Of a stretch of DNA of 32,000 nt, positions 4,354 to 29,900 are shown piece after piece. Origin of the DNA: Patescibacteria group bacterium (GTDB taxonomy: Bacteria > Patescibacteriota > UBA1384 > XYA2-FULL-43-10); the NCBI GenBank assembly GCA_041674405.1, contig JBAYVT010000004.1:30001-62000 (forward strand). Reading direction: 5' to 3'. A program made the translations under genes and the position numbers. Each line of letters opens with the position of its first letter. Positions within the stretch are counted from its first letter, which is position 1. Below the pieces are notes generated by a model. That model had not been told where the DNA came from. It saw only the letters and a list, made by a program, of their open reading frames with translations, and searched no databases.

Positions 4354-4860
4354 TTGGCAAACGACCCAAAAACCACAGCTCCCAAGATTGACTTGTCCAA
4401 CGAGAAGCCGCTTTTTCAGTGGAAAGCAAATGAATTTGCGGAATATTCCAAAAATTCTTCTTGGTATCTATTGGTGATCGTGGTTGCGATTGCAATTGCA
4501 GCCGTGTTTTGGTGGCTTAAGAACTGGACTGCCATCGGAGTTGTAGCGGCAGCGGCTATTGCCCTCATTGCACAAGCCAAGACCAAGCCGAAAAGTGTAT
4601 CTGTCCAGCTATTTAGGGAAGGTATTGTTGTAAATAATAAAGTCTATCCTTATGATTCCTTAAAATCTTTTTGGATTATTTCCGGAGACCATCCGGTTTT
4701 TCGGCTCGAGCAAACCGGGTTTCTAAGGCCGCACATCAATGTGCCTATTGCCGAAGAAGATCCAGCACAGATTCAGCTTTTTTTGGCAAAATTTTTACCT
4801 GAAAACGAGAAAAAAGGCGAGGATATTGCCGATATCATCCAGAGATGGACGCGATTCTAA
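4354..4860 (+). CDS. Hypothetical membrane protein (two adjacent TM helices)
   Basis: WYLLVIVVAIAIAAVFWWL and AIGVVAAAAIALIA are hydrophobic helices. The start is TTG, preceded by GGAGGG. No family was recognised. Confidence 0.5.
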   Translation: MANDPKTTAPKIDLSNEKPLFQWKANEFAEYSKNSSWYLLVIVVAIAIAAVFWWLKNWTAIGVVAAAAIALIAQAKTKPKSVSVQLFREGIVVNNKVYPYDSLKSFWIISGDHPVFRLEQTGFLRPHINVPIAEEDPAQIQLFLAKFLPENEKKGEDIADIIQRWTRF

Positions 4861-4920
4861 AGAAGTTAAAAGTGGAAAGTATAAAAAAATGCACAGGAGA
4901 GTGCTTTTTTGTTTGGTTTT

Positions 4921-5550
4921 CTAAAGAGGCTTTAATTCGTCCTTAAATCTTTCAATCATAAATTTAAGATCAGGAGTGAAAGAATCTGGATTTTTATCGA
5001 TCTCGTGCAAAAGTTCGTCCATTGAGAAAACTTCTATTCCACACGATTCTCCGTCGACAAATTTCAACACACCATTATAATAGCCGATGTAATAACAAGT
5101 AATATACGGCTGAATGAATTTTTTACCATCAATTGAAGTTCTCTCTGAATCCAAATCTGCCGGCCCGAGCAATTTTTTAACGAGTCCAATAACTTCAAGA
5201 TTTGTGGATTTCACAGCTTTTGAAAAATCCTCGTCGCTAATTACTGCGACTGGAATCCCAAGTTCCTCGGCACATTCACGAACGACCGTGATCTCCCAGT
5301 GTCCCCCGGAGCTAAGATGCCCCCCTACTGTCTTGTCGTATAGCCCAGGGTTTTCAGGTTTTATTCGGCTTCTCTTTTGCAAATAAATCCTGCCGTCCGT
5401 GTTCAGAAGAAGTAGTCTGATAGATTTAACCCTACTAGAGACTTTTCCCGTCTTTTCAAACTCTTCTTTGCTTTCAATAAAGTATTTCTTCCGGTCTTCA
5501 ACCCTAAGTAGGTTGCCTTCGAGATCATATATATCTAATTTCTCAGCCAT
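4921..5550 (-). CDS. NUDIX hydrolase family protein
   Basis: GGHLSSGGHWEITVVRECAEELGI fits the Nudix box GX5EX7REUXEEXGU. Confidence 0.8.
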   Translation of the reverse strand: MAEKLDIYDLEGNLLRVEDRKKYFIESKEEFEKTGKVSSRVKSIRLLLLNTDGRIYLQKRSRIKPENPGLYDKTVGGHLSSGGHWEITVVRECAEELGIPVAVISDEDFSKAVKSTNLEVIGLVKKLLGPADLDSERTSIDGKKFIQPYITCYYIGYYNGVLKFVDGESCGIEVFSMDELLHEIDKNPDSFTPDLKFMIERFKDELKPL

Positions 5551-5592
5551 ATTGATTCCATAATATTAACTTCGGCCTCTGATTTTGAGTTA

Positions 5593-5668
5593 TGGTACGC
5601 CCGGCAGGAATTGAACCTGCGACCTTCTGGACCGCAACCAGACGCTCTATCCACTGAGCTACGGGCGC
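5593..5668 (-). tRNA. tRNA-Arg (anticodon GCG)
   Basis: Reverse complement is GCGCCCG-TA-GCTC..TCTGG-TTGCGGT-CCAGA..GCAGG-TTCAATT-CCTGC-CGGGCGT-A-CCA. It is 76 nt with a G1-U72 wobble. Confidence 0.88.
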
Positions 5669-5743
5669 AAACACGCATTATATTAGCATTATTTTAAGAT
5701 TATTTCTAGACTTTCCACTTTGCACTTTTCACTTGAAACTATT

Positions 5744-6444
5744 TTATCCGTGCGCCACTACAACGCCGTACACTTTCTTCGCCCCGGCGGCCTTTAGAAC
5801 TTTCGCACATTCGTTTAAGGTTGTTCCGGTAGTCGCAACATCATCAATCAATAAAACGTTTTTTCCGTGCACAAATTCATCGTCTTCAACGCGAAAAACC
5901 CCTGTAAGATTAGAAAGCCTTTCGTTTCGCTTAAGGGTAGCTTGGGGTTTTTGATCTTTTATTCTTGATAGCGCATCACAGCCGGGAATTCCAAGCTTAT
6001 TTGAAACGTATTTTCCGATCAATTCTGACTGGTTGAATCCCCTTTCTGCCTTCCGTTTCAGCGAGAGTGGAACTGATACAATTACACAATTATCGGGTAT
6101 AGCTTCGAGCAATAATCGCTCTACCAACAATTCTCCGAGTATGCCGGCAAGGTCGACAAATCCTGAATATTTTAAGTGATGAATAATTTCCTTTGTCGGT
6201 CCCGCGTCATAAGTCGCAGCCGACATAATGCCATTTATCATAAAACCCAGGTTTTTTTGCAGTTGAGACAATACGAGCCAAATTTGATGATTTTACCGCA
6301 TTCCGGACAAGTCGATGTGGCGATTTTTTCGATTTTACTGGCACAACCAAAACACAAATGATTGCCATATTTGCCACAAGAAATACATTTTTTCGGATAA
6401 AATATGTCAATGATCGTATTTAGATATTGTCTGGTTAAACCCAT
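5744..6444 (-). pseudogene. comFC: ComF-family phosphoribosyltransferase (ComFC-like) split by a frameshift in an A7 run
   Basis: The N-terminal Cys-rich part (MGLTRQYLNTIIDIFYPKKCISCGKYGNHLCFGCASKI...CPECGKII..YCLNCKK) is in one frame and stops at 6238. The PRTase part (LLIDDVATTGTTL) is in another frame, 5744-6271. The two frames meet at tgcAAAAAAAcctgg (A-run 6253-6259). Confidence 0.75.
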
Positions 6445-6569
6445 ACATATATAATTAATGTTTTGCTGTTGACTAGTTTTTTTTACTGATTTACAATTAC
6501 ATTGTATATTATAATTGAATATCGCAATTATTCTGGATATCCTGAGGATTTGCCGCTCAAAGGAGGGAA

Positions 6570-6938
6570 ATGACAGAGGAGGACAAAAATGACTGGGCGG
6601 ATGGCGAAAGTGAAGGACAACTAGCAATAGATGTCTATCATGACGACCAAGCCGTATATATTTTGGCGCCAATAGCCGGTGTCAAGGCTTCTGATGTTGA
6701 CATTTCCATCACAGATGAGGTTGTTACCATACGCGGCGAACGAAGCCCCGGTCACGATACCGGAGACGAAAAACATTTTACAAAAGAGTGCTATTGGGGG
6801 CCATTTTCCCGATCTTATGTTATGCCTATTGCGGTCGCTTCCGAAAAAGCAAAGGCAATACTTAAAGACGGCCTTCTTAAAATTGTGATTCCAAAAGACG
6901 AAAAAGTTAAAACAAAAATAATAAAAGTTGAGGAATAG
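6570..6938 (+). CDS. Hsp20/alpha-crystallin small heat-shock protein
   Basis: AIDVYHDDQAVYILAPIAGVKASDVDISITDEVVTIRGER...LKDGLLKIVIPK is the alpha-crystallin domain pattern. An AAGGAGGG SD lies upstream. Confidence 0.85.
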   Translation: MTEEDKNDWADGESEGQLAIDVYHDDQAVYILAPIAGVKASDVDISITDEVVTIRGERSPGHDTGDEKHFTKECYWGPFSRSYVMPIAVASEKAKAILKDGLLKIVIPKDEKVKTKIIKVEE

Positions 6939-6976
6939 TTCACAATTAGTAGTTTGTAGTCCTTGGTTTGCTAATT

Positions 6977-7012
6977 AATTACCGCTTGGAGCTTGGCGGT
7001 AATTTGTGTTTT
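6977..7012 (+). terminator. Rho-independent terminator after hsp20
   Basis: AATTACCGC (6977-6985) pairs with GCGGTAATT (6996-7004), followed by TTGTGTTTT. Confidence 0.7.
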
Positions 7013-7077
7013 AATTAAGGTGTGATGGTTTTCCCTACTGACTACGGACTACCCCCTAATGACTAAAAGGAGTTTTT

Positions 7078-7953
7078 ATGAAAATTCGCAAAGCCGTTAT
7101 TCCGGCAGCAGGTTACGGAACAAGATTTTTGCCGGCAACCAAATCTATCCCAAAAGAAATGCTGCCGATTGTCGACAAACCAACCATTCAGTATGTGATC
7201 GAAGAGGCTGTTGAGTCAGGAATAGAAGATATCATTATCGTCACCGGTAGTACCAAGAGAGCAATCGAGGACCACTTCGACCACAGCCTGGAACTTGAAG
7301 GACAACTACAAAAAGCGGGAAAGATAGATCAATTAGAACAAATCCAAAAAATTGCCAGGATGGCGAATTTTATTTACGTGCGCCAGAAAGGGGCTTACGG
7401 TAATGGTACGCCTGTTCTTAACGCAGAGCACATCATAGGAAATGAGCCTTTTGCAGTTCTTTGGGGCGATGAGTTTATTGCTGGTAATCCTCCGCGATTG
7501 AAACAGTCGATAGAAGTATTTGACGAGTTTAAGAGGCCAGTTATTTCAGCTGTTCGAGTCGAAAAAAAGGAAGATCTGTCCCGTTATGGCATTGGCGATG
7601 TAACGCTGGTAAGAGACAATATCTTCGAAATTAACGAGATAGTCGAAAAGCCTGATCCGGACAAAGCGCCGTCAAATTTAGCCACGCATGGAGCCTACAT
7701 CCTAACTCCAGATATTTTTGATGCTTTAAAGAGTCAGAAACCTGGAAAAGGCGGTGAAATTTGGTTAGTAGATGGAATAAATGAACTTAAAAAGAAGGGT
7801 CCGATCTATGCCTGCGAAATTAAGGGCGGCAAATATTATGACTGCGGGAATATTACAGAATATCTAAAGACCAATGTCGAGCTTGCCTTGAAGCGCCCGG
7901 ATCTCCAGGAGGAATTTGGGGAATTTATAAAAGAAACTGCCTCGAAATTGTAA
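7078..7953 (+). CDS. galU: UTP-glucose-1-phosphate uridylyltransferase
   Basis: KAVIPAAGYGTRFLPATKSIPKEMLPIVDKPTIQYVIEEA is the canonical GalU N-terminus. Confidence 0.9.
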   Translation: MKIRKAVIPAAGYGTRFLPATKSIPKEMLPIVDKPTIQYVIEEAVESGIEDIIIVTGSTKRAIEDHFDHSLELEGQLQKAGKIDQLEQIQKIARMANFIYVRQKGAYGNGTPVLNAEHIIGNEPFAVLWGDEFIAGNPPRLKQSIEVFDEFKRPVISAVRVEKKEDLSRYGIGDVTLVRDNIFEINEIVEKPDPDKAPSNLATHGAYILTPDIFDALKSQKPGKGGEIWLVDGINELKKKGPIYACEIKGGKYYDCGNITEYLKTNVELALKRPDLQEEFGEFIKETASKL

Positions 7954-8034
7954 AAGTGGTTGTTTTGTACAAAATGTTGTATCATGTTATCAGATACATT
8001 GATAGATGTCCTTGTTTATAAAAGGTGAGGGGAT

Positions 8035-9414
8035 ATGGAAATTAAAGCTGGGTTTTTGAAAAAAATCAGTCTAGTTCTCTCGATTTTGCTTTTAGCCATT
8101 CTTACATCAGGGTGCTCCATAAGATCTACGGGCACAACAGAATCAAAAGTTATAACCATATGGGGCTTTGAAGATGAGGATACTTGGAAGCCAACAATAG
8201 ACGAACTATCCCAAGGAAGCCTAAACGGATACGAAATAAACTACGTCAAAAAAACTCTCGACGCCAACTATGAGAATGATTCTTTGAATTCAATTATGTC
8301 TGGCCAAGGGCCAGATGTTTGGGCCATGCCAGCAGATTGGGTTTATCGACACAAAGACAAGCTGGCACCCATGCCAGATGATATGTTGAAAGACATTGAC
8401 CTGGATAATAAATTCGTCCCAGCCATCAAACAATCTCTTGATTTTGACGGGAAGCTTTATGGGCTTTCGCCGGTTGTTAACACCTTAATGCTGTATATAA
8501 ACAAATCAGTTACCGCCCAAGTTCTTTCCGAATTTAATCAATCCGATGCCGCGACTAATGCCGAACAAGCCGATAAGGTAAATACTCTCCTAAACTCAAC
8601 TCCGCAGACCTGGACCGAATTTGCCGACTTTGCAAATCTTGTTACCAAGAAAAATGGCGACCAAATTGTAAGAAGCGGTGTTGCCCTGGGTACAAGCCAG
8701 AACGTCACGATCTCCGAAGACCCTCTGTATGCGATGATGCTCCAAAATGGCACAGCCATGACATCTAACGACTTGCAAACCGCTACGTTTAACTTGCCTT
8801 CTTCGGGAGGATCAGACATACCGGGAAAAAGAGCTCTAGACTTCCTTGCAAGTTTTTCCAAACCGGGTTCTGCCAACTATTCCTGGAATGGAAGCATGCC
8901 GAAAGACATCGAGGCATTTGCAACCGGCAAAACTGCGATGGTATTTGCGTATGAATCTTTTGCGAATTACATGGATCAAAATTACCCAAATGTTGAATAT
9001 TCACAGTCGGCCCTTCCTCAAATTGGCGGGGCAGATGAAAAGATTGTGGATTTTGCGCGATTTAACGCCTTGGTGGTACCAGGATTAACAAAGTTTCCAC
9101 AAGAGGCATGGGAAGTTGTTTCTGCTGTTTCTACCGAACATGCTACCGATTTTTCTAGTGCACTAAAAATTACGACTTCACAAAAAGACAATGCTATGAT
9201 CAAAGTCCTGAAAGACCGGGCGGGAAACTCTGACGTCGGCAGCTTTCAGGCCCAAACCGCTGTTACATGGAACAAGGGGAGGTACCCACTAAATATCGAT
9301 AGCATTTTTACAACAATGATCAACAATGTTTCGTCAAGCGGACAAGATACAAAAGCCGCTCTCGACACAGCAGCATCACAGGTTACGCAAATATTAAGAA
9401 AAACCACATGGTAA
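8035..9414 (+). CDS. Extracellular solute-binding lipoprotein (ABC-type, family-1-like), orphan
   Basis: The signal peptide has the lipobox LTSGC. Size is 459 aa, with sugar-SBP-like motifs (ITIWGFEDED, GPDVWAMPADWV). No permease or ATPase gene is adjacent. Confidence 0.6.
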   Translation: MEIKAGFLKKISLVLSILLLAILTSGCSIRSTGTTESKVITIWGFEDEDTWKPTIDELSQGSLNGYEINYVKKTLDANYENDSLNSIMSGQGPDVWAMPADWVYRHKDKLAPMPDDMLKDIDLDNKFVPAIKQSLDFDGKLYGLSPVVNTLMLYINKSVTAQVLSEFNQSDAATNAEQADKVNTLLNSTPQTWTEFADFANLVTKKNGDQIVRSGVALGTSQNVTISEDPLYAMMLQNGTAMTSNDLQTATFNLPSSGGSDIPGKRALDFLASFSKPGSANYSWNGSMPKDIEAFATGKTAMVFAYESFANYMDQNYPNVEYSQSALPQIGGADEKIVDFARFNALVVPGLTKFPQEAWEVVSAVSTEHATDFSSALKITTSQKDNAMIKVLKDRAGNSDVGSFQAQTAVTWNKGRYPLNIDSIFTTMINNVSSSGQDTKAALDTAASQVTQILRKTTW

Positions 9415-14464: not shown

Positions 14465-14554
14465 GGTGAGGTGCTAGAGTGGTTGAATAGGCCGGTCTCG
14501 AAAACCGGTATGCCCGCAAGGGTATCGTGGGTTCAAATCCCACCCTCACCGCCA
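14465..14554 (+). tRNA. tRNA-Ser (anticodon CGA)
   Basis: GGTGAGG..CCGGT-CTCGAAA-ACCGG..long variable arm..GTGGG-TTCAAAT-CCCAC-CCTCACC-G-CCA. Confidence 0.92.
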
Positions 14555-14646
14555 TCCCACGTTGCCCGATTTATCGGGCTATGCGGGATGAAGAACAGAA
14601 TTTGAACGGGAAGGGGTCGGGAAACGGGAGTTTCCCGCTTCGGAAA
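14555..14646 (+). repeat. tRNA-Ser-trailing conserved element, copy 2
   Basis: tcCCACGTtGCCCGATTtaTCGGGCTATGCGG...ATTtgAACGGGAAGGgGTCGGGAAA (block 2 at 14600-24), then the hairpin GGGAAAC-GGGA-GTTTCCC. It parallels 2620-2727 on the minus strand. Confidence 0.7.
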
Positions 14647-14675
14647 AAACTAAAAACCGAGGGTTTTTAGAAGCT

Positions 14676-14726
14676 TGTCTCGAGGAACCGAGAGGCGAAG
14701 CGCTCGAAATCCCACCCTCACCGCCA
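14676..14726 (+). pseudogene. Degenerate duplicate of the 3' half of tRNA-Ser(CGA)
   Basis: A perfect 20-nt repeat, AAATCCCACCCTCACCGCCA, occurs at 14707-14726 and at 14535-14554. Upstream, GTCTCGA echoes the anticodon-loop region. There is no 5' half and no T-stem partner. Confidence 0.75.
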
Positions 14727-14751
14727 TTTGACGAGTTTATATCTCCAACTG

Positions 14752-14784
14752 AAAAAGCCGGCGCAAACTTCACGCCGACTTTTT
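14752..14784 (-). terminator. Hairpin terminator downstream of the GC-rich methyltransferase gene
   Basis: AAAAAGCCGGCG (14752-63) pairs with CGCCGACTTTTT (14773-84) with one mismatch. A/T runs on both sides make it potentially bidirectional. Confidence 0.65.
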
Positions 14785-14797
14785 AGTTCCTCACCTC

Positions 14798-15517
14798 CTA
14801 TTTCACCGCGCAGATTATGTCGTAGTTGGGCTCTGCCGCAAGGTTTGGTCTCAAGACTCTCTTCACCCCTAGCCCCCGAACAAGCCCTTCCATTTCGTTT
14901 GGCGCAAGCAAATACGAAAGTGAGCGGTTCTGGAACTGCTGCCCGCGAACGATACCCTTCCCCTCTATCACCCGCGTTCGCCGAAACCAATCGTGGGTGA
15001 TGTCAACCGCCATGCTGTAGCCGAGGAAGGAAAGGTTCAGGTGACCACCACCCTGATCAATCTCGTGCTGTGAGATCGTGTCGAGGTAGAGAAGTCCGCC
15101 GCTTTTTAAGGCAGCGAGCATTTCTTTTAGGCTTCTTCCGATCTCCATGCGACACCGACCAGGATCGAAGATATCGCCCTTCCCCCAGCCCCCCACGTTT
15201 GTTAAGCTGTTACCTCTGCATATCACAGCGTCGAAAGTCCTGGCCAGCTCGCGAGCCTTCCGCCAATCCAGTTTGCGAAACTCAATCGCCGGATGGCTGT
15301 GGCGAGCAGTGGCGATGTCGATCATCTCTTCGTCCGCATCGATCCCGACCCCTGTAAAGCCGCGCTCTGCTAAACCGTGCAGCACATGCCCACCGCCGCA
15401 TCCACACTCGATGATTGTTCTGACGCCGAGTTCCCGCAGTAAATCCGCTAGTTCTTTGATGAACTCCGAGCCATACATCAGCTCGGACAAGATTACCCAC
15501 TGCTGTGACAGAGTCAC
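14798..15517 (-). CDS. Class I SAM-dependent methyltransferase, glycine/sarcosine-N-methyltransferase-like (GC-rich)
   Basis: Motif I is IIECGCGGGHVLHGLAERGF. FDAVICRGNSLTNV and LKSGGLLYLD resemble the remembered GNMT-type post-I/III motifs. The GTG start overlaps the upstream stop (GTGA). Confidence 0.75.
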   Translation of the reverse strand: MTLSQQWVILSELMYGSEFIKELADLLRELGVRTIIECGCGGGHVLHGLAERGFTGVGIDADEEMIDIATARHSHPAIEFRKLDWRKARELARTFDAVICRGNSLTNVGGWGKGDIFDPGRCRMEIGRSLKEMLAALKSGGLLYLDTISQHEIDQGGGHLNLSFLGYSMAVDITHDWFRRTRVIEGKGIVRGQQFQNRSLSYLLAPNEMEGLVRGLGVKRVLRPNLAAEPNYDIICAVK

Positions 15518-16158
15518 GTGCCTTCAACCTCCTTCATCATGATCACTCGCAGGCCTCCTGTTGCTGCGTCCTCCGGAATAAAATCCGGAGCTATCCAGAG
15601 AAACTTACCCCCAAGCCGGTAGTAGAAGGCCAAGAGCGGGTCGAGGCAAAGTTCGCGATCAGTAGGAAAGGGCCCTCCCGCGAGATGTCGATCTATCGCC
15701 TCCTTGAACGCGGGCCTTTGTCTAATCCCTTCTCTTGGGCTTCCATTGTAGGAGGCCGGCCTCCCGTCAGCTATTCCAAGGATGCAACCATCCGACTTAA
15801 TTCGACCAAGCATAGCTTGCGCCAGTAATACTGCTGTGCGGGCATTGCGATACTTATCCTGCACGTTGAGGTTGTAGACGAAGGCACAATCATGGCTGGT
15901 CTCCATCGGCATCGTCGAGAACTCCCCAAAGTTTCTGGAAAATGCTTTGGGATCACTCGGATAAAACCGGGAGTAGGAAAAGCAGATTTTCCCAACCAGC
16001 TCCCCGTCCAGTCTGGCCCCAAGCATGATGTGTCCAAGGCGCAGCCGCTGCTCGATCAGCTCACGGCTGGCGCGCAGATAGGGCGGGAACGACAGGTTCT
16101 CGTCTTCGAGGATTTCGTCCAAATCCTCGAAAGACAACTCGACTATCATCGTGTCCAT
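15514..16158 (-). CDS. GNAT-fold acyltransferase-like protein (GC-rich), start revised
   Basis: The track ORF runs to 16299, but its first 47 codons lie in the AT-rich spacer. The ATG at 16158 (MDTMIVELSFEDL) is preceded by AAAGGAGG. The central VYNLNVQDKYRNARTAVLLAQAM resembles a GNAT beta4-alpha3 region. The family assignment is tentative. Confidence 0.5.
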   Translation of the reverse strand: MDTMIVELSFEDLDEILEDENLSFPPYLRASRELIEQRLRLGHIMLGARLDGELVGKICFSYSRFYPSDPKAFSRNFGEFSTMPMETSHDCAFVYNLNVQDKYRNARTAVLLAQAMLGRIKSDGCILGIADGRPASYNGSPREGIRQRPAFKEAIDRHLAGGPFPTDRELCLDPLLAFYYRLGGKFLWIAPDFIPEDAATGGLRVIMMKEVEGT

Positions 16159-16193
16159 AATGTCTCGCCTCCTTTGGATTCTTCGAAACAAAA

Positions 16194-16223
16194 AATTATC
16201 CCTCCGTCTTGGCAGGATGTCAA
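16194..16223 (-). promoter_or_regulatory. Sigma70-type promoter TTGACA-N18-ATAATT for the GC-rich two-gene operon
   Basis: On the minus strand, TTGACA is the complement of 16218-16223 and ATAATT is the complement of 16194-16199. The promoter lies in the divergent spacer shared with the TrmB-like regulator gene. Confidence 0.55.
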
Positions 16224-16308
16224 TAATTTGCACAGGGATTTTGTTAGTGATATCCTTTAATCGAGATTGTTTTATTAAAATGTTGTCAAAGTTTTTCACA
16301 AATAAGTT

Positions 16309-17067
16309 ATGAACTTACAGGCAATTTTAGAGGAATTCGGGCTTTCCAAACGCCAGGCCAGCGTCTATCTGGCAAATTTGGAGTTGGGAGAGGCGAGTGT
16401 TGCTCAAATTGCCGAAAAAGCTCAAATCGAGCGTACTGGCACCTACTACGTTATAGAATCGCTGTGCGGCAAAGGCCTTATCGTCGAGATTGAGCGAGGC
16501 AAAAAAGATTTTTTTGTCGCCATCGAGCCAAAAGAGCTGCTATCAATTGCAAAAAGAAGAGAAAAGTTGATATTAGAACACCTGCAGGAATTTGAGGCCT
16601 TTTCGAATATCTCCTCGGAGAAACCTCATGTCCGCCTTTACACCGGAATCAACGGAATAAAAACGGTTTTTTTAAAAACAATTGAGAAACCAAAAATACA
16701 GATGCTGGGCTTTTCACCCTACAGAACAGCCGAGAAAACCGCCTGGTACAACGGCAAAGAGTATGTGGAATGGGGTTTGGACTATATCAGGAAACGAGCC
16801 TCCAGAAGGATTTTCGCTCGCACCATCGCTGAAGATACACCGGAATCACAAGCGCGCAAGGGGAGAGACGCTGAAGAACTGCGGGAAACACGTCTGGTTC
16901 CACACGATAAATTCCTGTTCACCAACGAAATAGCCATCCTCGACGATTGGGTCGCGGTAATTTCATACAAAGAGATGGCTGCGCTTGTAATTGAATCAAA
17001 AGAATTTACTAAAACAATGAGATCAATTTTTGAACTAGCATGGGATGGAGCGGAAAAATATTTGTAG
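16309..17067 (+). CDS. TrmB-family transcriptional regulator
   Basis: The N-terminal winged helix, LEEFGLSKRQASVYLANLELGEASVAQIAEKAQIERTGTYYVIESLCGKGLI, is typical of TrmB-type regulators. Confidence 0.75.
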   Translation: MNLQAILEEFGLSKRQASVYLANLELGEASVAQIAEKAQIERTGTYYVIESLCGKGLIVEIERGKKDFFVAIEPKELLSIAKRREKLILEHLQEFEAFSNISSEKPHVRLYTGINGIKTVFLKTIEKPKIQMLGFSPYRTAEKTAWYNGKEYVEWGLDYIRKRASRRIFARTIAEDTPESQARKGRDAEELRETRLVPHDKFLFTNEIAILDDWVAVISYKEMAALVIESKEFTKTMRSIFELAWDGAEKYL

Positions 17068-17119
17068 CCCAACGGATATTTCAGTTAATAATTTTTGACT
17101 TGCAATTTTGATTTTTGAG

Positions 17120-19953: not shown

Positions 19954-20466
19954 CTAGAAGCGGCCGATGTTGTACTGGGCGCAGACGCTGTCGTCCTGCC
20001 CATCCACGCAGAGCCGGTATAGCCCTGATGCGCGGCCGGACTTCCAACAGAACTGGATGGTCTGGTAGGGCTTGCACCCCGCCTGGTATTTCACATACCC
20101 CATCGCATCCAGGCCCCTCACGATCTTGACCGGCGGCGTCGTAACGTCCGCCCGCCACGGGTCGTATCCCCACACACGAAGACACGAATTCCAGGGGTTG
20201 ACCTCGGCGCCGAGCCTCAGCCGCTCATTGTCCGTCCTGGCAAGCCAGAGGACATCGGCCGGCTTGTACCCTGCCATCAGCAGAGTGTAGGGCCCGTCCA
20301 CCTGCTGTTCGGCGTAGAACCACGCCGAACCGCGAGCAACGGTCACGGTTGCAGCCGTGTACTCGCCTTGGACGAACACACCCGGAGACACCGACACCTC
20401 GTCCGCGAAAGCGACCGAGACGGACAAAGCCAACATTGCGATCAGAACAGCGGTAATAGCGCGCAT
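19954..20466 (-). CDS. Secreted Cys/Trp-rich hypothetical protein (GC-rich)
   Basis: The signal peptide is MRAITAVLIAMLALSVSVAFA/DE. The mature protein is about 149 aa with 5 Cys. An AGGAGG SD lies 6 nt before the ATG. No family was recognised. Confidence 0.65.
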   Translation of the reverse strand: MRAITAVLIAMLALSVSVAFADEVSVSPGVFVQGEYTAATVTVARGSAWFYAEQQVDGPYTLLMAGYKPADVLWLARTDNERLRLGAEVNPWNSCLRVWGYDPWRADVTTPPVKIVRGLDAMGYVKYQAGCKPYQTIQFCWKSGRASGLYRLCVDGQDDSVCAQYNIGRF

Positions 20467-20512
20467 GTTTGCGCCTCCTGTACCCGAAATTGTACGCCTG
20501 ATACCGACAATT

Positions 20513-25889: not shown

Positions 25890-25972
25890 GGAGCGTTCGA
25901 TAATAATCCTTAGGGCGCACAGCTGCGATTAGCGCAGGCGTCCAAGGTACTGATTGTCAGGAGGTGGCAGAC

Positions 25973-26893
25973 ATGCGTCTGTCCACGATAATTGGGTTAG
26001 CTATGATGTTGGTGTCGGGGGCGTTCGCGGGAGAGATCGCAGTCTGCCCGCAGCCTACCCCTCAGAGACTGGCGATCGCGCCGGTCTCTGCCTCGTCCCT
26101 TGGCCAGTTCGAGTGGTGGGTGGACGAAGAGGAGGCGGCCGGCCTGGTCGAGGAGCGAGCCTATGAGGTCGCTCCCTGCATTCTGGCCGCCTACAACATG
26201 GAGCTGGTAGAGCGGAAGATGCTCGGGATCGCAGAGGCCGAGCAGGCCTTGGCAGAGGATCCGTACATGGACCCCACTACCTTCGAGCAGCCTGGCCAGG
26301 GCGTCGGCGCCAACTGGCTCCTGGTGGTTACGGTCACCAGGATGAGCGTGGAGGATAAGTCCGTGGACGTTGAGATCCGCGGCAACTCCTATCACGCTGA
26401 GAAGTCCATGATAACGGTCTGGCTGCAGGCGCGGATCGTCAATGTGGGGACGAAAGTCGTGTCACCCGCGCTATCGATTCGCAAGAACTGCACGATCACG
26501 ACTGACCAGCAGCTCAGCCTGCAGAGCGGCGAGTGGGATCTGGGCGGTGATCAGCGGACGGACATCGTGACCGATGCCGTCTATAAGATCACCGACTCTG
26601 GTCTTGCCGAGCTCTTGGGGCAGCTGCTGCCCAAGCTTGGCATCAGGACTGGGGCGCAAGCCGGATTCCGGTACGACCCGCAGACGGGCGAACGCATTTC
26701 GGTGATTGAGCAGACATACATCTGCCCGAACCCGAGATGCAACCGGATCTCGCCGAAAGGAGCGAACTTTTGCCCCTACTGCGGCGCCAGGTTGGACCGG
26801 CCCTGCGAACCCGCACCGGCAATCGAAAGGGCGCGGCCCTGTGAGCCGCCACCAGCCGCTAACCGCGACAAGGTGAACCACGCCGGCGGATAG
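25973..26893 (+). CDS. Secreted CsgG/LpoB-like-fold protein with a C-terminal zinc ribbon and Pro-rich tail (GC-rich), start revised
   Basis: The ATG at 25973 lies 8 nt after CAGGAGG; the track used a GTG at 25964. The signal peptide is MRLSTIIGLAMMLVSGAFA. MELVERKMLGIAEAEQAL...GANWLLVVTVTRMSVEDK...ITVWLQARIVNVGT parallels the CsgG-family pattern. The zinc ribbon is CPNPRCNRISPKGANFCPYCGARL. Confidence 0.55.
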   Translation: MRLSTIIGLAMMLVSGAFAGEIAVCPQPTPQRLAIAPVSASSLGQFEWWVDEEEAAGLVEERAYEVAPCILAAYNMELVERKMLGIAEAEQALAEDPYMDPTTFEQPGQGVGANWLLVVTVTRMSVEDKSVDVEIRGNSYHAEKSMITVWLQARIVNVGTKVVSPALSIRKNCTITTDQQLSLQSGEWDLGGDQRTDIVTDAVYKITDSGLAELLGQLLPKLGIRTGAQAGFRYDPQTGERISVIEQTYICPNPRCNRISPKGANFCPYCGARLDRPCEPAPAIERARPCEPPPAANRDKVNHAGG

Positions 26894-26917
26894 CCGGCAC
26901 CAAGGAGGAGAAGTACC

Positions 26918-26954
26918 AAAGGAGCGCCCTTAACCGGGCGCTTCCTTTGTGTTT
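26918..26954. terminator. Strong hairpin terminator between convergent genes
   Basis: AAAGGAGCGCCC (26918-29) pairs with GGGCGCTTCCTTT (36-48) with a 1-nt bulge, followed by GTGTTT. Confidence 0.7.
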
Positions 26955-26975
26955 AAATAGGTTATTAGTTTTTAG

Positions 26976-29900
26976 TTAAAATCCGACATGTGTATACGCG
27001 GTAGTCTGTGGATTTGCCCACATGCCAGCCTTGGTGCCGTTACACAAGCCGTTTGTTTGCCCGCCGCCAGTGACATTTTTACATATGGTATCTGATGTAA
27101 GTGCTGACCAAGCATTTACATCTTCCCAACGGCCGGTCATGACCTGGGTTGGGACGAGCTTTTGATCATCTGTACTTGATGGCATGTCGTATAAGTTTTG
27201 GATGAATTTATTGGCCTTGTATTGTGCAGCCTCAATTATCTTTCTCTCTCTGGTTTTACTGTCTATACCATTCCATACCCCGAGATTTCCGTTGTCCACT
27301 ATATCGGGTGATGGTGGTGATTCGATGCTAGGATAATAACCATCAGCTGTACACAAGTATTCAACTTTGTAAACACCAAAGAGGTTATTGTAAAGGATAA
27401 TTGCCACATCAATTGCTGCTTGTATCCAGTTGCCATACAGAAAGCTGATAGTGGCATCCAGAAGAAGCGATAAGGTGCCAGGAGCAAGTCCGAGCTGCTC
27501 GTCCCATTTTGCCAATGTGTCGCCCAGAACAAGCCTTGCCGCATAAGAGATTGCCGCAGCCTTGGCATTTGCAAGATTGGCACCAGAAGCCCCGCTTCCG
27601 CCGGACGCAGCAAATGCCTGCTCTGCCTGTTTAAAGTTCTGGTACAAATTATAAAGATTTTGGCTTGTGCCTGGCGGCAGACCAAATGTCTTGTCAACAA
27701 ATCCGCCAACAAAGTTTAGGGCAAACGATGGGCCCCCATAAATGTCTGCTAGAGATTGAAGCTTATTTCCAGCTATTGATAGTGCCCCTTCTAAGCTTCC
27801 AGTCTGAAGAAATCCAAGAATACCACCGAATGTGCCTTGGCCGAAATCGACCCCAAAAATCGAGGCTGCCTTACCTGTAATGTAATTATCTATTGTGTTA
27901 ACGAGAGTTCCGTCGGCAGTGGCTGATCCCAAAAGGCCATTCAAAGCGCTCTTAAAGTCAAAGCTGTTCGGATCAGAAATAAAATTTTGTAGTGTTCCCA
28001 AGAATCCGCCCGGAAGAAAATCTATTCCGAGGTCATTCCGGATTAAGCCCTCGGCATATTCAAGTAGGGTAGTTGTCCGCGTCCAATCATTCCCCTGAAA
28101 CATGCTGCGGGCAAAATCGGCAGGAATATTCGGATCCAGCCTGTGCAAGGCTAAATCAATTGATTTATACTCCACTCCCTGGCTCCAAATATTTGTAGCA
28201 AAGTCGATTGCTGCTTGCCCAGCGTTTAAGACATCAAGCGCTCGAGTATTGCCAATTCGAACATTTAGAAGGCTGTCAATTGCCGCCCCTGTATCAATCC
28301 CAGCAGTAATGCGCAATCCATTGTCAACTTGAAGATTTAGAATCGGCGCACTTGAAGTATCCGATGCACCCGGGAAATTAAGGCCAATGTTAATAATCCC
28401 GTTTGGAGGCCCAAGGTTAGATGATGTAGTAGAATCGGACAATATCCCGGTTGAAACGTTGAAGGTGGCGTTACCGGCGGCGATCGTCCAGTTGTAACTA
28501 GAATTAGTCAGCTGGTTCCATCTTTGTTGCTCTGCTGCCAGGCGAACGGCAATTTCCTGTGTTAAATCTCCATATACCAATCGCGTTAGATCGCTAAAAT
28601 TAAACTTGAATGAATTTAGGGCATTTATTGCGTTGTCGTATGTTTCAAATATTCCCAAATTGAAGGGCAATCCGTCTTTGCCGGAATACATTTGGGGGAT
28701 ATTCATGACTGCACCTAGGAGCTGAATCGGCCTAAAATCCCCATAGAGAATTTGCTGGAAAGTTGAAGAGTCAAACCCGTCCATGTTTAGGAGATTTTTG
28801 AGAGAATATTCCAGGTTGCCGGCAATATCTTTGATCGTGAAATTAACTTGCAAATCTTTAAAAGCGTCCCCGACAAGTGTGTTTAACTGTCCCCCGATCG
28901 TGGACTTGAGGCAAGATTCCGTATCTCCACTGCCGCCAAATATCGAGAGCCCGCATCTTATGTCCGGATTGCCCAAGATCAATGTCTTGAATACTGAAGT
29001 CAATCCTAAACTGCTGTCAAATGCCTCGGCACCAAAGGATATTAATCTGTTAAAAGTTGTCTGAGGGTCTTGCAGAATTGTGGCCATGGTGCCTTCCGGC
29101 AAACCGGCTTTTTTATCCAGATTCCAAGAGAAAATATTGTTTAATGTACCATAAAGATCACCCATGTTATCGCCGGGATCTTTGATCCAGGTGATGAGAT
29201 TGTTTATGTCGCCATCTGTTATTTGCCTGTCGCTGCCGTCTTGTAGCCCGAGTCCTTTTATCAAACCCGAAATCAAATTGTTCTGAGTTGCGGCATCAGT
29301 AACCTGGCGTACGTATTGGTTTATCGGGAAAATCTCACCCAGGCTTCCCGCGGTTGGCGAGGCAAGAAGCTTGACTGTTGTGCCATCCGGCAGCCCGAGA
29401 TTGCGATCCAGAAAAGATAATCTGCCAACGAAGTTGTTCCACGAAGGTTCGTTCTGGCTAAATAAGGTGGCAATTGTATCCGAATTAAATCCACCGGTGC
29501 TTCCTTTTGAGACCAGGGAATCAATTGTCTTTTGTAATGCATCATTCACTCCGGTCCAGTTAGTGCCTAAGGCCTGGTAATAAGTTACAACGGAGTTTAG
29601 TTTTTGATAAAAGCTGTTTCCTGCATTCACATTAAAGAAATTTTCACCCATAGACTTTAATTCTGCATTTACAACACTGATCTCTTCTTGGCTTACCGGA
29701 ATTTGGAACGCTTCGGCAAATTTAACAACCCCGACATTCTTTGCAACACCCAAAATATTTCCGCTTTTTAGCGACCCAGCCGGTAATCCGAGCAGTGACT
29801 CTGCTTTATTTGACCCAACACTGCTACCGGTGAACAAAGAAGCCAAGTCAAGGTTGCCTGTGCCAATAGAGTTACCGATAAGATTAGTTGATATTTGAGT

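What the first reader, a model, noticed from the sequence alone, without database searches (positions are those of the whole stretch)
14728..16308. GC-rich GNAT-like plus GNMT-like methyltransferase operon next to a tRNA-Ser, divergent from a TrmB-type regulator
Two translationally coupled GC-rich genes (GTGA overlap at 15514-15517) lie here.
- The downstream product has a class I SAM-binding motif and blocks that I recall from glycine/sarcosine N-methyltransferases (FDAVICRGNS, GGLLYLD, and a C-terminal ...YDIICAVK).
- The upstream product looks GNAT-fold, but I cannot place it in a family.

An acyl/acetyl-transferase plus an N-methyltransferase suggests a two-step small-molecule modification, such as a compatible solute, metabolite tailoring or detoxification. 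That would be unexpected in a metabolically reduced genome.

The operon shares a 150-bp divergent control region (16159-16308) with a TrmB-family regulator of intermediate G+C. It begins immediately after a duplicated tRNA-Ser 3' end.
Basis: partly seen in the sequence, partly recalled or inferred. Interest (0 to 1): 0.65.

Follow-up and report, generated by a model that had tools for sequence, protein, structure and literature searches.

The report
Acquired acyltransferase–methyltransferase–regulator gene island
A tiny-genome (Patescibacteria) bacterium has picked up, next to a serine tRNA gene, a rare three-gene unit: a regulator plus two enzymes of unknown target that most likely add an acyl group and a methyl group to the same amine compound. 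The unit is also found in ultra-small archaea, and in some genomes the two enzymes are fused into one protein.

Summary
Two minus-strand genes overlap by GTGA: a 239-aa class I methyltransferase (14798-15517) and a 214-aa GNAT-fold protein (15514-16158). They lie divergent from a TrmB-type regulator (16309-17067) and just past a 21-nt copy of the tRNA-Ser(CGA) 3' end.

- **Insertion:** Same-family relatives have YidC-Jag-DUF192-tRNA-Ser-PilB with nothing in between, so about 2.5 kb is inserted here. The GNAT-like gene was found in 0 of 40 relatives and in 1 of 400 other Patescibacteria, where it is fused to the methyltransferase.
- **Spread:** The pair recurs, adjacent or fused, in Berkelbacteria, Pacearchaeota and Nanoarchaeota, usually with an HTH regulator.
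- **GNAT-like protein:** Its nearest structures are PKS-loading GNAT decarboxylases (CurA, GphF, SxtA). At CurA's catalytic His389 it has the canonical acyltransferase Tyr, and Gly at Thr355, so I read it as an acyltransferase, not a decarboxylase.
- **Methyltransferase:** It falls in the fold group of GNMT, GSMT, CypM and TylM1, mostly amine N-methyltransferases. It fails the GSMT model (44 vs 350 bits) and lacks the carboxylate-binding Arg.

The substrate is unknown. This is a new subfamily pair of known enzyme kinds.

The parts
14465..14554 (+). tRNA-Ser(CGA). Its 3' end faces the inserted genes.
   Evidence: ARAGORN and Rfam RF00005 at 59 bits. The same tRNA sits between DUF192 and PilB in relatives.
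14555..14628 (+). tRNA trailer element, with a hairpin at 14553-14590. It is shared with the trailer of tRNA-Ser(UGA) at 2727->~2650 and is probably native rather than cargo.
   Evidence: Alignment; inverted repeat I6.
14535..14555 (+). Direct repeat, copy 1: the last 20 nt of the tRNA plus 1 nt.
   Evidence: family D2, 100% identity.
14707..14727 (+). Direct repeat, copy 2: an att-like scar. It lies in the 3' UTR of the methyltransferase operon. It does not flank the genes.
   Evidence: Relatives carry only one copy.
14650..14670 (-). Terminator-like hairpin followed by a T-run, downstream of the methyltransferase gene.
14798..15517 (-). Class I SAM-dependent methyltransferase, 239 aa, in the GNMT/GSMT/CypM/TylM1 fold group.
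15514..16158 (-). GNAT-like protein ('GNATL'), 214 aa. It has a CurA/GphF/SxtA-like scaffold with the canonical general-acid Tyr179 and invariant Asp131.
16168..16174 (-). AAGGAGG ribosome-binding site, 9 nt upstream of the GNATL ATG.
   Evidence: Sequence; conserved in four loci.
16195..16223 (-). Sigma-70-like promoter TTGACA-17-GATAAT for the GNATL-methyltransferase operon. The TTGAC of its -35 hexamer is invariant in four related loci.
16281..16302 (.). Conserved 22-nt block TTTGTGAAAAACTTTGACAACA (read on the minus strand) next to the TrmB start. It is a candidate operator or TrmB promoter element.
   Evidence: Alignment of four intergenic regions.
16309..17067 (+). TrmB-family winged-helix regulator, 252 aa. 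Its C-terminal half is unassigned.
   Evidence: PF01978 at 50.1 bits. It is 47-59% identical to the regulators beside the pair in L001, L003 and L005.
14629..17119 (.). The insertion relative to same-family genomes: terminator, tRNA-end repeat, methyltransferase, GNATL, control region and TrmB. The left edge is uncertain and lies between 14555 and 14707.
   Evidence: Synteny in L032, L033, L019 and L018; absence in relatives.

Best explanation
**What it is.** A small, horizontally acquired, self-contained module has been inserted at the 3' side of tRNA-Ser(CGA). It consists of a TrmB-type regulator divergently transcribed from a two-gene operon.

**The first enzyme (GNATL).** It is a GNAT-fold acyltransferase built on the extended scaffold of the PKS-loading and malonyl-CoA-decarboxylase GNATs, but it carries canonical acyl-transfer residues. 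Tyr179 sits in the general-acid position, Asp131 at the end of strand beta5 is the likely general base, and the Thr/His decarboxylase dyad is absent.

**The second enzyme.** It is a SAM-dependent methyltransferase of the GNMT/GSMT/CypM/TylM1 fold group. It keeps the amine-contacting Asn of the GNS motif but lacks the carboxylate-clamping Arg.

**How it most likely works.** The two enzymes act on one and the same amine-bearing substrate. That substrate is most likely a small metabolite or amino-sugar/polyamine-type compound scavenged from the environment or a host. One enzyme N-acylates it from an acyl thioester and the other methylates it. TrmB switches the operon in response to a ligand.

**Shown:**
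- the gene structures, the folds and the residue substitutions;
- the coupling of the two enzymes, by fusion and by conserved adjacency;
- the insertion and the rarity of the module.

**Inferred:**
- the acyl-transfer and N-methyl chemistry, the shared substrate, and regulation by TrmB.

**Unknown:**
- the identity of the substrate.
For: **Insertion**
- Four same-family genomes have DUF192-tRNA-Ser(CGA)-PilB with 9-400 bp between DUF192 and the tRNA, against 2565 bp here.
- GNATL was found in 0 of 40 relatives and in 1 of 400 other Patescibacteria.
- The two enzyme genes are G+C-rich relative to the genome.
- The 21-nt duplicate of the tRNA end occurs only in this genome.

**Coupling of the two enzymes**
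- 14 of 30 GNATL loci, this window among them, have an intact cognate methyltransferase immediately downstream or fused, and a 15th has it split into two ORFs.
- Fusions of 453-488 aa exist, including a 488-aa fusion in another Patescibacteria genome.
- The two genes overlap by 4 nt.

**Regulator**
- TrmB lies next to the pair in 10 loci, and an HTH_10 regulator takes its place in L009 and L011.
- The intergenic promoter and operator-like blocks are conserved across four loci despite only about 50% protein identity.

**GNATL chemistry**
- The AF2 model has pLDDT 90.3. The best Foldseek hits are SxtA-DC, GphF and CurA GNATL (TM 0.74-0.80), against 0.55-0.60 for ordinary GNATs.
- The profile's best PDB sequence hits are SxtA (E 3e-4) and CurA (E 2e-3), with GphF fifth at E 0.05.
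- The alignments place CurA Thr355 on Gly132 and, through the GphF alignment and CurA numbering, His389 on invariant Tyr179.
- PMC3701320 states that this His corresponds to the general-acid Tyr of canonical GNATs.
- bioRxiv 10.1101/2025.03.07.642089 states that all GNAT decarboxylases need the His plus a Ser/Thr.
- In other bacteria, GNATL relatives sit beside PaaK-like acyl-CoA ligases, which suggests acyl-thioester donors.

**Methyltransferase chemistry**
- The AF2 model has pLDDT 90.4.
- Foldseek hits are GNMT, GSMT, CypM (TM 0.78), CgnL, CcbJ, CalS10 and TylM1, which are N-methyltransferases, and PsmD/SeMT/SgMT, which are C-methyltransferases.
- The invariant GNS motif puts Asn103 on MpGSMT Asn134, the residue that contacts the substrate amine.
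Against: - No substrate, product or activity is known for any member of either family.
- The GNATL P-loop (Q/RxxGxG/A) is poorly conserved; only Arg104 is invariant. CoA binding is therefore not demonstrated.
- Pfam Acetyltransf_1 scores 19.1 bits, below its 20.7 cut-off, for this member.
- The residue mapping rests on HMM alignments at about 20% identity, not on a superposition of coordinates.
- The same methyltransferase fold group also contains C-methyltransferases (PsmD, SeMT).
- The methyltransferase occurs without GNATL in one archaeon (L007). GNATL occurs with a P450 instead of a methyltransferase in Proteobacteria. The partnership is therefore not obligatory.
- The host genome shows no MetK, CoaE or Pta, so both cofactors would have to be scavenged.
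- The island has no integrase, and the repeats do not flank the genes, so the route of acquisition is unclear.
Confidence: 0.55

Rival explanations
1. Peptide or protein N-terminal tailoring. The methyltransferase methylates the alpha-amine of a peptide or protein, as CypM does for cypemycin and CgnL for crocagin. GNATL acylates the same or a neighbouring amine of that peptide or protein. This would be a RiPP-like or protein-maturation function.
For: - The highest TM-scores for the methyltransferase are to CypM (0.78) and CgnL (0.74-0.76).
- Weak NCBIfam hits go to RiPP methyltransferases ApyS and the daptide methyltransferase.
- Second-tier fold hits for GNATL are N-alpha-acetyltransferases (RimI, Ard1, Naa50).
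- Small ORFs follow or precede the pair in some loci (55 aa in L005).
Against: - No conserved small precursor-like ORF accompanies the pair across loci.
- The 62-aa ORF in L011 is best explained as a truncated GNATL C-terminus (P0144-like hit).
- No protease, cyclase or transporter partners recur.
- Acetylation and methylation of one alpha-amine exclude each other.
- Family pI values are mostly neutral to acidic, with no sign of a macromolecule-binding surface.
Confidence: 0.15
2. Detoxification or self-protection. The pair inactivates an amine-containing toxic metabolite or antibiotic met in the host-associated niche, by N-acylation and methylation. This would resemble phosphinothricin or arsinothricin N-acetyltransferases and aminoglycoside acetyltransferases. 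TrmB would act as the sensor.
For: - The module is a rare, patchy, horizontally spread accessory unit.
- It is self-contained, with its own promoter, terminator and regulator.
- Fold neighbours include AAC(6'), ArsN and phosphinothricin acetyltransferases.
Against: - These resistance enzymes are only second-tier fold hits (TM about 0.55).
- There are no homologues on 72,556 plasmids.
- The PADLOC hit is only to a generic methyltransferase core.
- A two-step modification is unusual for resistance.
- In DPANN genomes the pair has host-like composition and housekeeping neighbours, which suggests long residence.
Confidence: 0.15
3. Free-standing analogue of a PKS loading module. As in SxtA, GphF and AprA, the methyltransferase C-methylates a malonyl thioester and the GNAT-like protein decarboxylates it. 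The result is a propionyl or branched acyl unit.
For: - GNATL's best structural and sequence matches are exactly these decarboxylase domains, which act together with a methyltransferase domain.
- A weak profile hit goes to an AprA-MT2/ACP/GNAT megasynthase (P0189).
- The host genome does contain carrier proteins and a PPTase, in an NRPS cluster.
Against: - Both dyad residues essential for decarboxylation are replaced in every family member: Thr355 by Gly or Ala, and His389 by Tyr. CurA Arg404 is Ile or Leu.
- The methyltransferase is not of the AprA/SxtA type. It gives no PF23525 hit, and 7uci is not among its PDB sequence hits.
- The domain order is reversed (GNAT then methyltransferase).
- Other genomes carrying the pair have no condensation domains.
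Confidence: 0.05
4. Glycine-betaine-type compatible-solute synthesis. The methyltransferase is a GSMT/SDMT-like enzyme that methylates glycine or sarcosine.
For: - The best NCBIfam hit is GlySarMtaseBact, and the best PDB sequence hits are GSMT (E 5e-7) and GNMT.
- The GNS motif is shared.
Against: - The score is 44 bits against a cut-off of 350.
- MpGSMT Arg167, which forms the salt bridge to the substrate carboxylate, aligns with Ile148.
- The N-terminal region is about 28 residues shorter.
- There is no second methyltransferase (SDMT) in the module.
- The GNAT partner has no role in betaine synthesis.
Confidence: 0.03

Closest known systems
GNAT-like decarboxylase domains of PKS loading modules: CurA GNATL (PDB 2REE/2REF), GphF (6MFC) and SxtA MT-DC (7UCI). 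More distantly, malonyl-CoA decarboxylase.
   Same: - They share the extended ~200-residue GNAT scaffold (TM 0.74-0.80).
- They share the N-terminal LE..(C/S)(W/F)......AS motif, the (R)..Y motif after strand beta5, and the DPxLxF(H/Y)...PED C-terminal motif.
- They are functionally paired with a methyltransferase.
   Different: - GNATL is free-standing or fused N-terminal to a different type of methyltransferase, and it is not part of a megasynthase.
- The catalytic Thr/Ser is Gly or Ala, and the catalytic His is Tyr, the canonical GNAT general acid.
- CurA Arg404 is Ile or Leu, and there is an extra invariant Asp131.
Canonical GNAT N-acetyltransferases (RimI, Ard1/Naa10, AAC(6')).
   Same: - They share the core fold.
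- A Tyr occupies the general-acid position (PMC3701320).
- An acidic residue lies near the end of strand beta5.
   Different: - The TM-score is only about 0.55-0.60.
- GNATL carries about 50 extra residues, as an insertion at 62-90 and a C-terminal extension.
- The P-loop motif is weak.
- It scores below the Pfam Acetyltransf_1 threshold.
Glycine N-methyltransferase (GNMT) and glycine/sarcosine N-methyltransferase (MpGSMT, 5HIM/5GWX).
   Same: - They share the Rossmann core plus a beta-sheet lid.
- They share the FDA(V/I)(I/V)C.GNS motif, with the amine-contacting Asn.
- These are the best sequence hits in the PDB.
   Different: - The protein is not a family member: 44 bits against a cut-off of 350.
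- The carboxylate-clamp Arg is Ile148.
- The N-terminal gate helix is shorter and has its own conserved LS.EW motif.
Natural-product amine N-methyltransferases: CypM (7WZG), CgnL (7PD7), TylM1 (4OQD), CalS10 (6UK5) and CcbJ (4HGZ).
   Same: This group gives the best overall structural superposition (CypM, TM 0.78). The enzymes are similar in size and have the same lid architecture.
   Different: - Sequence identity is only 16-20%.
- None of them is known to be partnered or fused with a GNAT.
- Their substrates (peptide N-terminus, NDP-amino sugars) are not evidenced here.
tRNA-associated genomic islets.
   Same: The module is inserted at the 3' side of a tRNA gene. There is a 21-nt duplicate of the tRNA 3' end. 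Relatives lack it, and its cargo has a deviant composition.
   Different: There is no integrase. The repeat copies are 172 nt apart (start to start) and do not bracket the cargo. The regulator gene has host-like G+C.

Membership tests
GNAT superfamily (fold) | beta1-alpha1-alpha2-beta2-beta3-beta4-alpha3-beta5-alpha4-beta6-beta7 fold with a V-shaped beta4/beta5 cleft | tested here: met
   The AF2 model has pLDDT 90.3 with this order of elements. Foldseek gives probability 1.0 to hundreds of GNAT structures.
GNAT superfamily (Pfam PF00583) | Score at or above the gathering threshold (20.7 bits) | tested here: not met
   The window protein scores 19.1 bits. Several homologues and fusion proteins do pass.
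PKS-loading / MCD GNAT decarboxylases | Extended GNAT scaffold closest to CurA, GphF and SxtA | tested here: met
   These are the top five Foldseek hits, with TM 0.74-0.81. SxtA and CurA are the best profile-to-PDB hits at E 3e-4 and 2e-3; GphF is fifth at E 0.05.
PKS-loading / MCD GNAT decarboxylases | Catalytic His (CurA His389), essential for decarboxylation | tested here: not met
   The position aligns with invariant Tyr179. The requirement is stated in PMC3701320 and in bioRxiv 10.1101/2025.03.07.642089.
PKS-loading / MCD GNAT decarboxylases | Catalytic Thr/Ser (CurA Thr355) | tested here: not met
   The position aligns with Gly132, which is Ala in one homologue.
PKS-loading / MCD GNAT decarboxylases | Embedded in a megasynthase next to an ACP | tested here: not met
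   The protein is a free-standing 214-aa product. Fusions are only to a methyltransferase or an MBL domain.
GSMT/SDMT (NCBIfam NF051855) and GNMT | Score at or above the curated cut-off (350 bits) | tested here: not met
   The score is 44.3 bits and covers only residues 24-148.
GSMT/SDMT and GNMT | Arg that forms a salt bridge to the substrate carboxylate (MpGSMT Arg167, at the end of beta5) | tested here: not met
   The phmmer alignment pairs LDQRNY with LDTISQ, which places the Arg on Ile148. The role of Arg167 is taken from PMC5146677.
GSMT/SDMT and GNMT | Asn of the GNS motif contacting the substrate amine (MpGSMT Asn134) | tested here: met
   Asn103 is invariant in 23 family members and aligns with the GNS motif of GSMT.
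GSMT/SDMT and GNMT | N-terminal gate helix carrying the catalytic Tyr (MpGSMT Tyr26, GNMT Tyr21) | tested here: inconclusive
   The N-terminal region is about 28 residues shorter. It does have a conserved helix (LS.EW..LS, residues 3-14), whose equivalence I could not test.
Class I SAM-dependent methyltransferases | Rossmann fold with the E/DxGxGxG motif and an acidic residue after beta2 | tested here: met
   Five Pfam methyltransferase models score above threshold. ECGCGxG and Asp60 are invariant.
TrmB family regulators | N-terminal TrmB winged-helix domain (PF01978) | tested here: met
   50.1 bits against a cut-off of 25.6, over residues 7-75.
TrmB family regulators | Full-length sugar-sensing TrmB/TrmBL equivalogs | tested here: not met
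   The NCBIfam TrmB models score 14-27 bits against cut-offs of 500-650, and only over the N-terminal ~100 residues.
Integrase-mediated tRNA-targeting genomic island | Integrase gene, and direct repeats that flank the cargo | tested here: not met
   No integrase ORF lies in 14555-17119. The repeats are at 14535 and 14707 only, and no third copy lies near 17068-17119.
Known anti-phage defence systems (PADLOC) | Match to a defence-system component model | tested here: not met
   GNATL gives no hit. The methyltransferase matches only the methyltransferase core of mad2. TrmB matches only generic HTH parts of CasR and Csa3.

The most novel reading that the evidence does not exclude
GNATL would be a previously undescribed enzyme family that links canonical GNAT acyltransferases to the PKS-loader and malonyl-CoA-decarboxylase branch. 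It has the CurA-type scaffold but still carries the ancestral general-acid Tyr. Together with its dedicated, sometimes fused, methyltransferase it would make an N-acyl, N-methyl metabolite not yet known. The module would be exchanged between ultra-small bacteria (CPR) and ultra-small archaea (DPANN) because it serves their shared host-dependent lifestyle. In CPR hosts the two enzyme genes, but not their regulator, would be actively kept G+C-rich for an unknown reason.
Probability: 0.25. Interest if true: 0.6.

Novelty: new variant of a known kind. Interest (0 to 1): 0.42.

Why it matters
- **An unnamed, testable module.** This two-enzyme unit has no name and no Pfam or NCBIfam family model for its GNAT half. 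Fusion and adjacency link the two enzymes across bacteria and archaea with the smallest known genomes. Any accessory chemistry there is likely to concern the interaction with a host or the environment.
- **A question in enzyme evolution.** The GNAT half shows how the decarboxylase branch of the GNAT superfamily relates to ordinary acyltransferases. It has the same scaffold but Tyr in place of His, so it is a natural test of which residues set the reaction type.
- **A compact experimental system.** The unit is small (2.5 kb) and comes with its own promoter, ribosome-binding site, terminator and regulator, so it can be expressed and assayed directly.
- **A limit on what can be claimed.** If the function proves to be routine amine tailoring, the find is a useful annotation rather than a discovery.

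Tried and rejected
1. **Membership of GSMT/GNMT.** Rejected on the score and on the missing carboxylate-clamp Arg.
2. **Decarboxylase function for GNATL.** I considered this after the Foldseek result and rejected it because the Thr/His dyad is replaced.
3. **Link to the host's own NRPS cluster.** Four other genomes that carry the pair have no condensation domains.
4. **Defence system or plasmid cargo.** PADLOC and the plasmid tblastn search were negative.
5. **A classical integrase island.**
   - There is no integrase and no flanking repeat at the TrmB end.
   - No tRNA lies next to the pair in 14 other loci.
6. **mRNA hyper-structure as the reason for the high G+C.** Mean z-scores are only -0.5 to -0.7 for the two genes, against -2.1 for the G+C-rich gene at 25964-26893.
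7. **A nucleic-acid substrate.**
   - No RNA-methyltransferase fold neighbours appear among the top hits.
   - Family pI values are mostly neutral to acidic.
8. **Literature.** Searches for the gene combination found nothing relevant.
10. **Methyltransferase phylogeny.** I did not build a tree against reference GSMT/SDMT/GNMT sequences, because no tool supplies those sequences. I used the curated HMM cut-off and the residue tests instead.
Full report
**1. Observation**

ORF listing shows two minus-strand ORFs, at 14798-15517 (239 aa) and 15514-16299 (up to 261 aa), and a plus-strand ORF at 16309-17067.

- **Overlap.** The minus-strand sequence around 15517 reads GAA GGC ACG TGA / GTG ACT CTG. 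The stop of the upstream gene and the GTG start of the downstream gene therefore overlap as GTGA.
- **Methyltransferase start.** The GTG start is real. The N-terminus M-T-L-S-Q-Q-W matches the conserved M(T/S)LS(Q/K)EW of 22 homologues.
- **Start of the upstream gene.** It most likely starts at ATG 16158, giving 214 aa.
  - Homologues are 199-226 aa and align from there.
  - A TTGACA-17-GATAAT promoter lies at 16223-16195, inside the longer reading frame.
  - An AAGGAGG site lies 9 nt before that ATG.
- **Motifs and composition.** The quoted motifs are present. G+C is 55.4% and 54.4% for the two genes (GC3 65% and 63%), 44.5% for the regulator gene and 43.9% for the window.
- **tRNA.** tRNA-Ser(CGA) is at 14465-14554. 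An exact 21-nt copy of its 3' end is at 14707-14727, with none expected by chance.

**2. The three genes are an insertion**

- **Synteny in relatives.**
  - In genomes of the same family the order is YidC-Jag-DUF192-tRNA-Ser(CGA)-PilB. Only 9 to 400 bp separate DUF192 from the tRNA (L032, L019, L018, L033).
  - Here 2565 bp separate them, and that stretch holds the methyltransferase, the GNAT-like gene and TrmB.
- **Rarity.** A profile of the GNAT-like protein found nothing in 40 relatives of the same family and order, 33 of them at least 90% complete. It found one hit in 400 other genomes of the phylum.
- **The repeat.** The tRNA-end duplicate occurs only in this genome.
- **No classical island features.**
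  - The stretch has no integrase.
  - No further repeat lies at the TrmB end.
  - The second repeat copy lies between the methyltransferase stop and its terminator (14670-14650).
  - I therefore call it a scar of recombination at the tRNA, not a bracketing att pair.
- **The trailer.** The first ~75 nt after the tRNA resemble the trailer of tRNA-Ser(UGA) elsewhere in the window. They are probably native.

**3. The pair is one functional unit with a regulator**

- **Shared contigs.** Homologues of the methyltransferase (37 found, 39-50% identical) and of the GNAT-like protein (7 found, 43-55% identical) lie on the same contigs.
- **Gene neighbourhoods.** These show GNAT-like gene then methyltransferase, adjacent or overlapping, in several genomes:
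  - a Berkelbacteria chromosome (L001/L021);
  - two further contigs, one with bacterial-type neighbours (L005) and one with surface-polysaccharide neighbours and no taxon label (L003);
  - a complete Pacearchaeota genome (L004/L022);
  - a Nanoarchaeota genome (L027);
  - a contig with archaeal-type neighbours (L009).
- **Counts.** Of 30 loci with the GNAT-like gene, 14 (this window among them) have an intact cognate methyltransferase downstream or fused, and a 15th (L046) has it split into two ORFs.
- **Fusions.**
  - An exhaustive profile search gave 196 relatives. Six of them, 453-488 aa long, are GNAT-like plus class I methyltransferase fusions.
  - The single other Patescibacteria hit is a 488-aa fusion whose junction runs straight from the GNAT C-terminus into ISLSKEW.
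- **Regulator.**
  - A TrmB gene lies beside the pair in 10 loci.
  - In two loci with archaeal-type neighbours (L009, and L011, where only a GNATL fragment remains) an HTH_10 regulator takes its place.
  - The window's TrmB is 47-59% identical to those of L001, L003 and L005, about as diverged as the enzymes.
- **Control region.** The four intergenic regions share a 22-nt block next to the TrmB start, the -35 TTGAC of the operon promoter, and the ribosome-binding site.
- **Tree.** The window's GNAT-like protein falls in a supported clade (98/89) with L003, L005, L001, L034 and L035. All have the methyltransferase and, where the contig reaches that far, a divergent TrmB. The Pacearchaeota and Nanoarchaeota sequences lie outside that clade, and a proteobacterial group forms a clade of its own.

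**4. The GNAT-like protein**

- **Weak by sequence.** Pfam gives only a sub-threshold Acetyltransf_1 hit (19.1 against 20.7 bits). NCBIfam and PDB sequence searches with the single protein give nothing.
- **Clear by structure.**
  - An AlphaFold model from a 10-sequence alignment is confident (pLDDT 90.3).
  - Its best PDB matches are the GNAT-like decarboxylase domains of polyketide loading modules: SxtA MT-DC, GphF and CurA (TM 0.74-0.81).
  - Ordinary acetyltransferases reach only 0.55-0.60.
  - The family profile also finds SxtA and CurA as its two best PDB sequence hits, with GphF fifth (E 3e-4, 2e-3 and 0.05).
- **Residue mapping.** The alignments put CurA Thr355 on Gly132 and CurA Arg404 on Ile194. 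Through the shared DPxLxF(H/Y) motif they put His389 on Tyr179, which is invariant in the family.
- **What the literature says about those positions.**
  - The His plus Ser/Thr dyad is essential in all known GNAT decarboxylases (bioRxiv 10.1101/2025.03.07.642089; PMC3701320).
  - PMC3701320 also states that this His occupies the position of the general-acid Tyr of canonical GNATs.
- **Reading.**
  - The family therefore has the decarboxylase-type scaffold but the acyltransferase-type residue. It also has an invariant Asp131 at the end of strand beta5, where canonical enzymes often place their base. That last point is my inference.
  - I conclude that it is an acyltransferase, not a decarboxylase.
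- **Supporting context.** In Proteobacteria and Phycisphaerae, relatives sit next to one or two PaaK-like acyl-CoA ligases (6 loci). In the proteobacterial clade a P450 also follows the gene (6 loci). This fits an acyl-thioester donor.

**5. The methyltransferase**

- **Sequence searches.** Only generic class I Pfam models match. The best NCBIfam model is the bacterial glycine/sarcosine N-methyltransferase, at 44 bits against a cut-off of 350. The best PDB sequence hits are GSMT (5e-7) and GNMT.
- **Structure.** The model (pLDDT 90.4) matches a fold group with a beta-sheet lid:
  - N-methyltransferases: GNMT, GSMT, CypM (best TM, 0.78), CgnL, CcbJ, CalS10 and TylM1;
  - indole C-methyltransferases: PsmD, SeMT and SgMT.
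- **Substrate residues.** In MpGSMT, Asn134 contacts the substrate amine, and Arg167 with Tyr206 holds the carboxylate (PMC5146677). Here the Asn is invariant (Asn103 in CRGNS), but the Arg position is Ile148. The N-terminal gate region is about 28 residues shorter.
- **Reading.** The enzyme resembles an amine N-methyltransferase. It is not a glycine/sarcosine enzyme.

**6. Mechanism proposed**

TrmB controls a two-gene operon from the shared 150-bp region. The products, which are a single polypeptide in some organisms, act on one amine-bearing substrate. GNATL transfers an acyl group from a thioester, with Tyr179 as acid and Asp131 as base. The methyltransferase transfers a methyl group from SAM to a nitrogen, positioned by Asn103.

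- **Shown:** the anatomy, the folds, the substitutions, the coupling and the insertion.
- **Inferred:** both chemistries, the shared substrate and the regulation.
- **Unknown:** the substrate.

The host genome gave no hit for MetK of either type, CoaE or Pta, although acetate kinase is present. SAM and CoA thioesters would presumably be scavenged, as is usual for such organisms.

**7. Rivals**

- **Peptide or protein N-terminal tailoring (0.15).** It rests on the CypM and CgnL similarity, but no recurrent precursor or partner genes were found.
- **Detoxification (0.15).** It fits the patchy spread but has no direct support.
- **SxtA-like methylation and decarboxylation of a malonyl unit (0.05).** The replaced dyad, the different methyltransferase type and the lack of carrier systems in other genomes with the pair contradict it.
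- **Betaine synthesis (0.03).** It fails the family tests.
- **Defence system or plasmid cargo.** PADLOC and plasmid searches were negative.

**8. Composition puzzle**

- **The pattern.**
  - In three CPR-type lineages (this window, Berkelbacteria L001, and L005) the two enzyme genes have GC3 of 57-65% against 40-44% G+C in the flanks.
  - The accompanying TrmB has host-like G+C (37-45%).
  - In L003 and in the DPANN genomes the pair matches its host.
- **Why it is odd.** The proteins of these lineages are only about 50% identical. A simple 'recent arrival from a G+C-rich donor' does not explain why the enzyme genes alone stay G+C-rich.
- **What I tested.** mRNA folding does not explain it (mean z -0.5 to -0.7). 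I leave it unexplained.
- **Related notes.** Earlier notes of this scan describe other G+C-rich cassettes in this genome. My profile confirms peaks at 20001-20500 and 26001-27000.

**9. Verdict**

The feature is real and its anatomy was correctly seen. Membership of the glycine N-methyltransferase family is rejected.

- **Novelty.** It is a new subfamily pair of known enzyme kinds, on a small acquired island shared between CPR bacteria and DPANN archaea.
- **Interest.** Moderate. The fusion evidence and the scaffold-versus-residue contrast in the GNAT half make it a good, cheap target for biochemistry, but nothing shown so far lies outside known enzyme chemistry.

Noticed in passing
L053 = G000:C1:156000-175900 (own genome, another contig); genes at L053 3598-18121: This 929-kb Patescibacteria genome carries a non-ribosomal peptide synthetase cluster. 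It comprises an HDAC-like amidohydrolase, a 2077-aa NRPS (A-T-C-A-T-C), a 984-aa C-T-C protein, an Sfp-type PPTase, a class-III aminotransferase, a TehB-like methyltransferase and a CN-hydrolase. To my knowledge NRPS clusters are unusual in such reduced genomes. It is not linked to the pair studied here.
   Followed up: partly
window 14798-16158 vs 16309-17067; L001 7349-8735 vs 6437-7201; L005 5336-6801 vs 4414-5175: In three CPR-type lineages the two enzyme genes keep GC3 at 57-65% while the co-travelling TrmB gene and the flanks are at 37-45% G+C. This holds even though the proteins are only about 50% identical between lineages. It is not explained by mRNA structure.
   Followed up: partly
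window 14555-14628 (+) and 2727->~2650 (-): The trailers of two different tRNA-Ser genes share about 75 nt: a GCCCGA...TCGGGC hairpin followed by AACGGGAAGG.GTCGGGAAA. This is a possible shared processing or terminator element, or a recombination substrate.
   Followed up: partly
L032 8670-8759, L018 905-995 vs L019 1372-1461, L033 7754-7843 and window 14465-14554: The tRNA-Ser(CGA) gene lies between DUF192 and PilB in all of these genomes, but its orientation differs. It is on the same strand as its neighbours in two relatives and on the opposite strand in two others and in this genome. The site looks recombination-prone.
   Followed up: no
L026 3772-9316; L041, L042, L044, L045, L049 (around 5000-8300): In Thiobacillus and in related, mostly unlabelled metagenome contigs, the GNAT-like gene is followed by a cytochrome P450 (best models TxtE-like and cyclodipeptide-associated). 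It is flanked by one or two PaaK/DVU_1553-type acyl-CoA ligases. This is an uncharacterised, natural-product-like cluster.
   Followed up: partly
P0103 (467 aa); L023 6870-7457: Other partners of the GNAT-like domain are an N-terminal metallo-beta-lactamase-fold domain fused to it and a cysteine-dioxygenase-type cupin downstream in a Phycisphaerae genome. Both hint at thiol or amino-acid chemistry.
   Followed up: no
L011 5816-6004; L046 1605-2333: The module shows signs of decay in some genomes. One has a 62-aa remnant where the GNAT-like gene should be, upstream of an intact methyltransferase. Another has the methyltransferase split into two ORFs.
   Followed up: no
L004 2817-4529, L030 3577-5448, L048 5635-7383, L026 12210-12626: An arginyl-tRNA synthetase gene lies within 0.1-5.5 kb of the GNAT-like gene in four loci. 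L030 and L048 are syntenic relatives, so this may be inheritance rather than function.
   Followed up: no
window 19954-20466 and 25964-26893: Two further G+C-rich genes (62% and 60-63% G+C in 500-nt windows) lie in the same origin-proximal region. The second has a strongly structured mRNA (mean z -2.1). Earlier reports of this scan cover them.
   Followed up: partly
own genome G000 (whole): No match was found to MetK (bacterial or archaeal type), CoaE or Pta, while acetate kinase is present. The organism apparently depends on imported SAM and CoA.
   Followed up: partly
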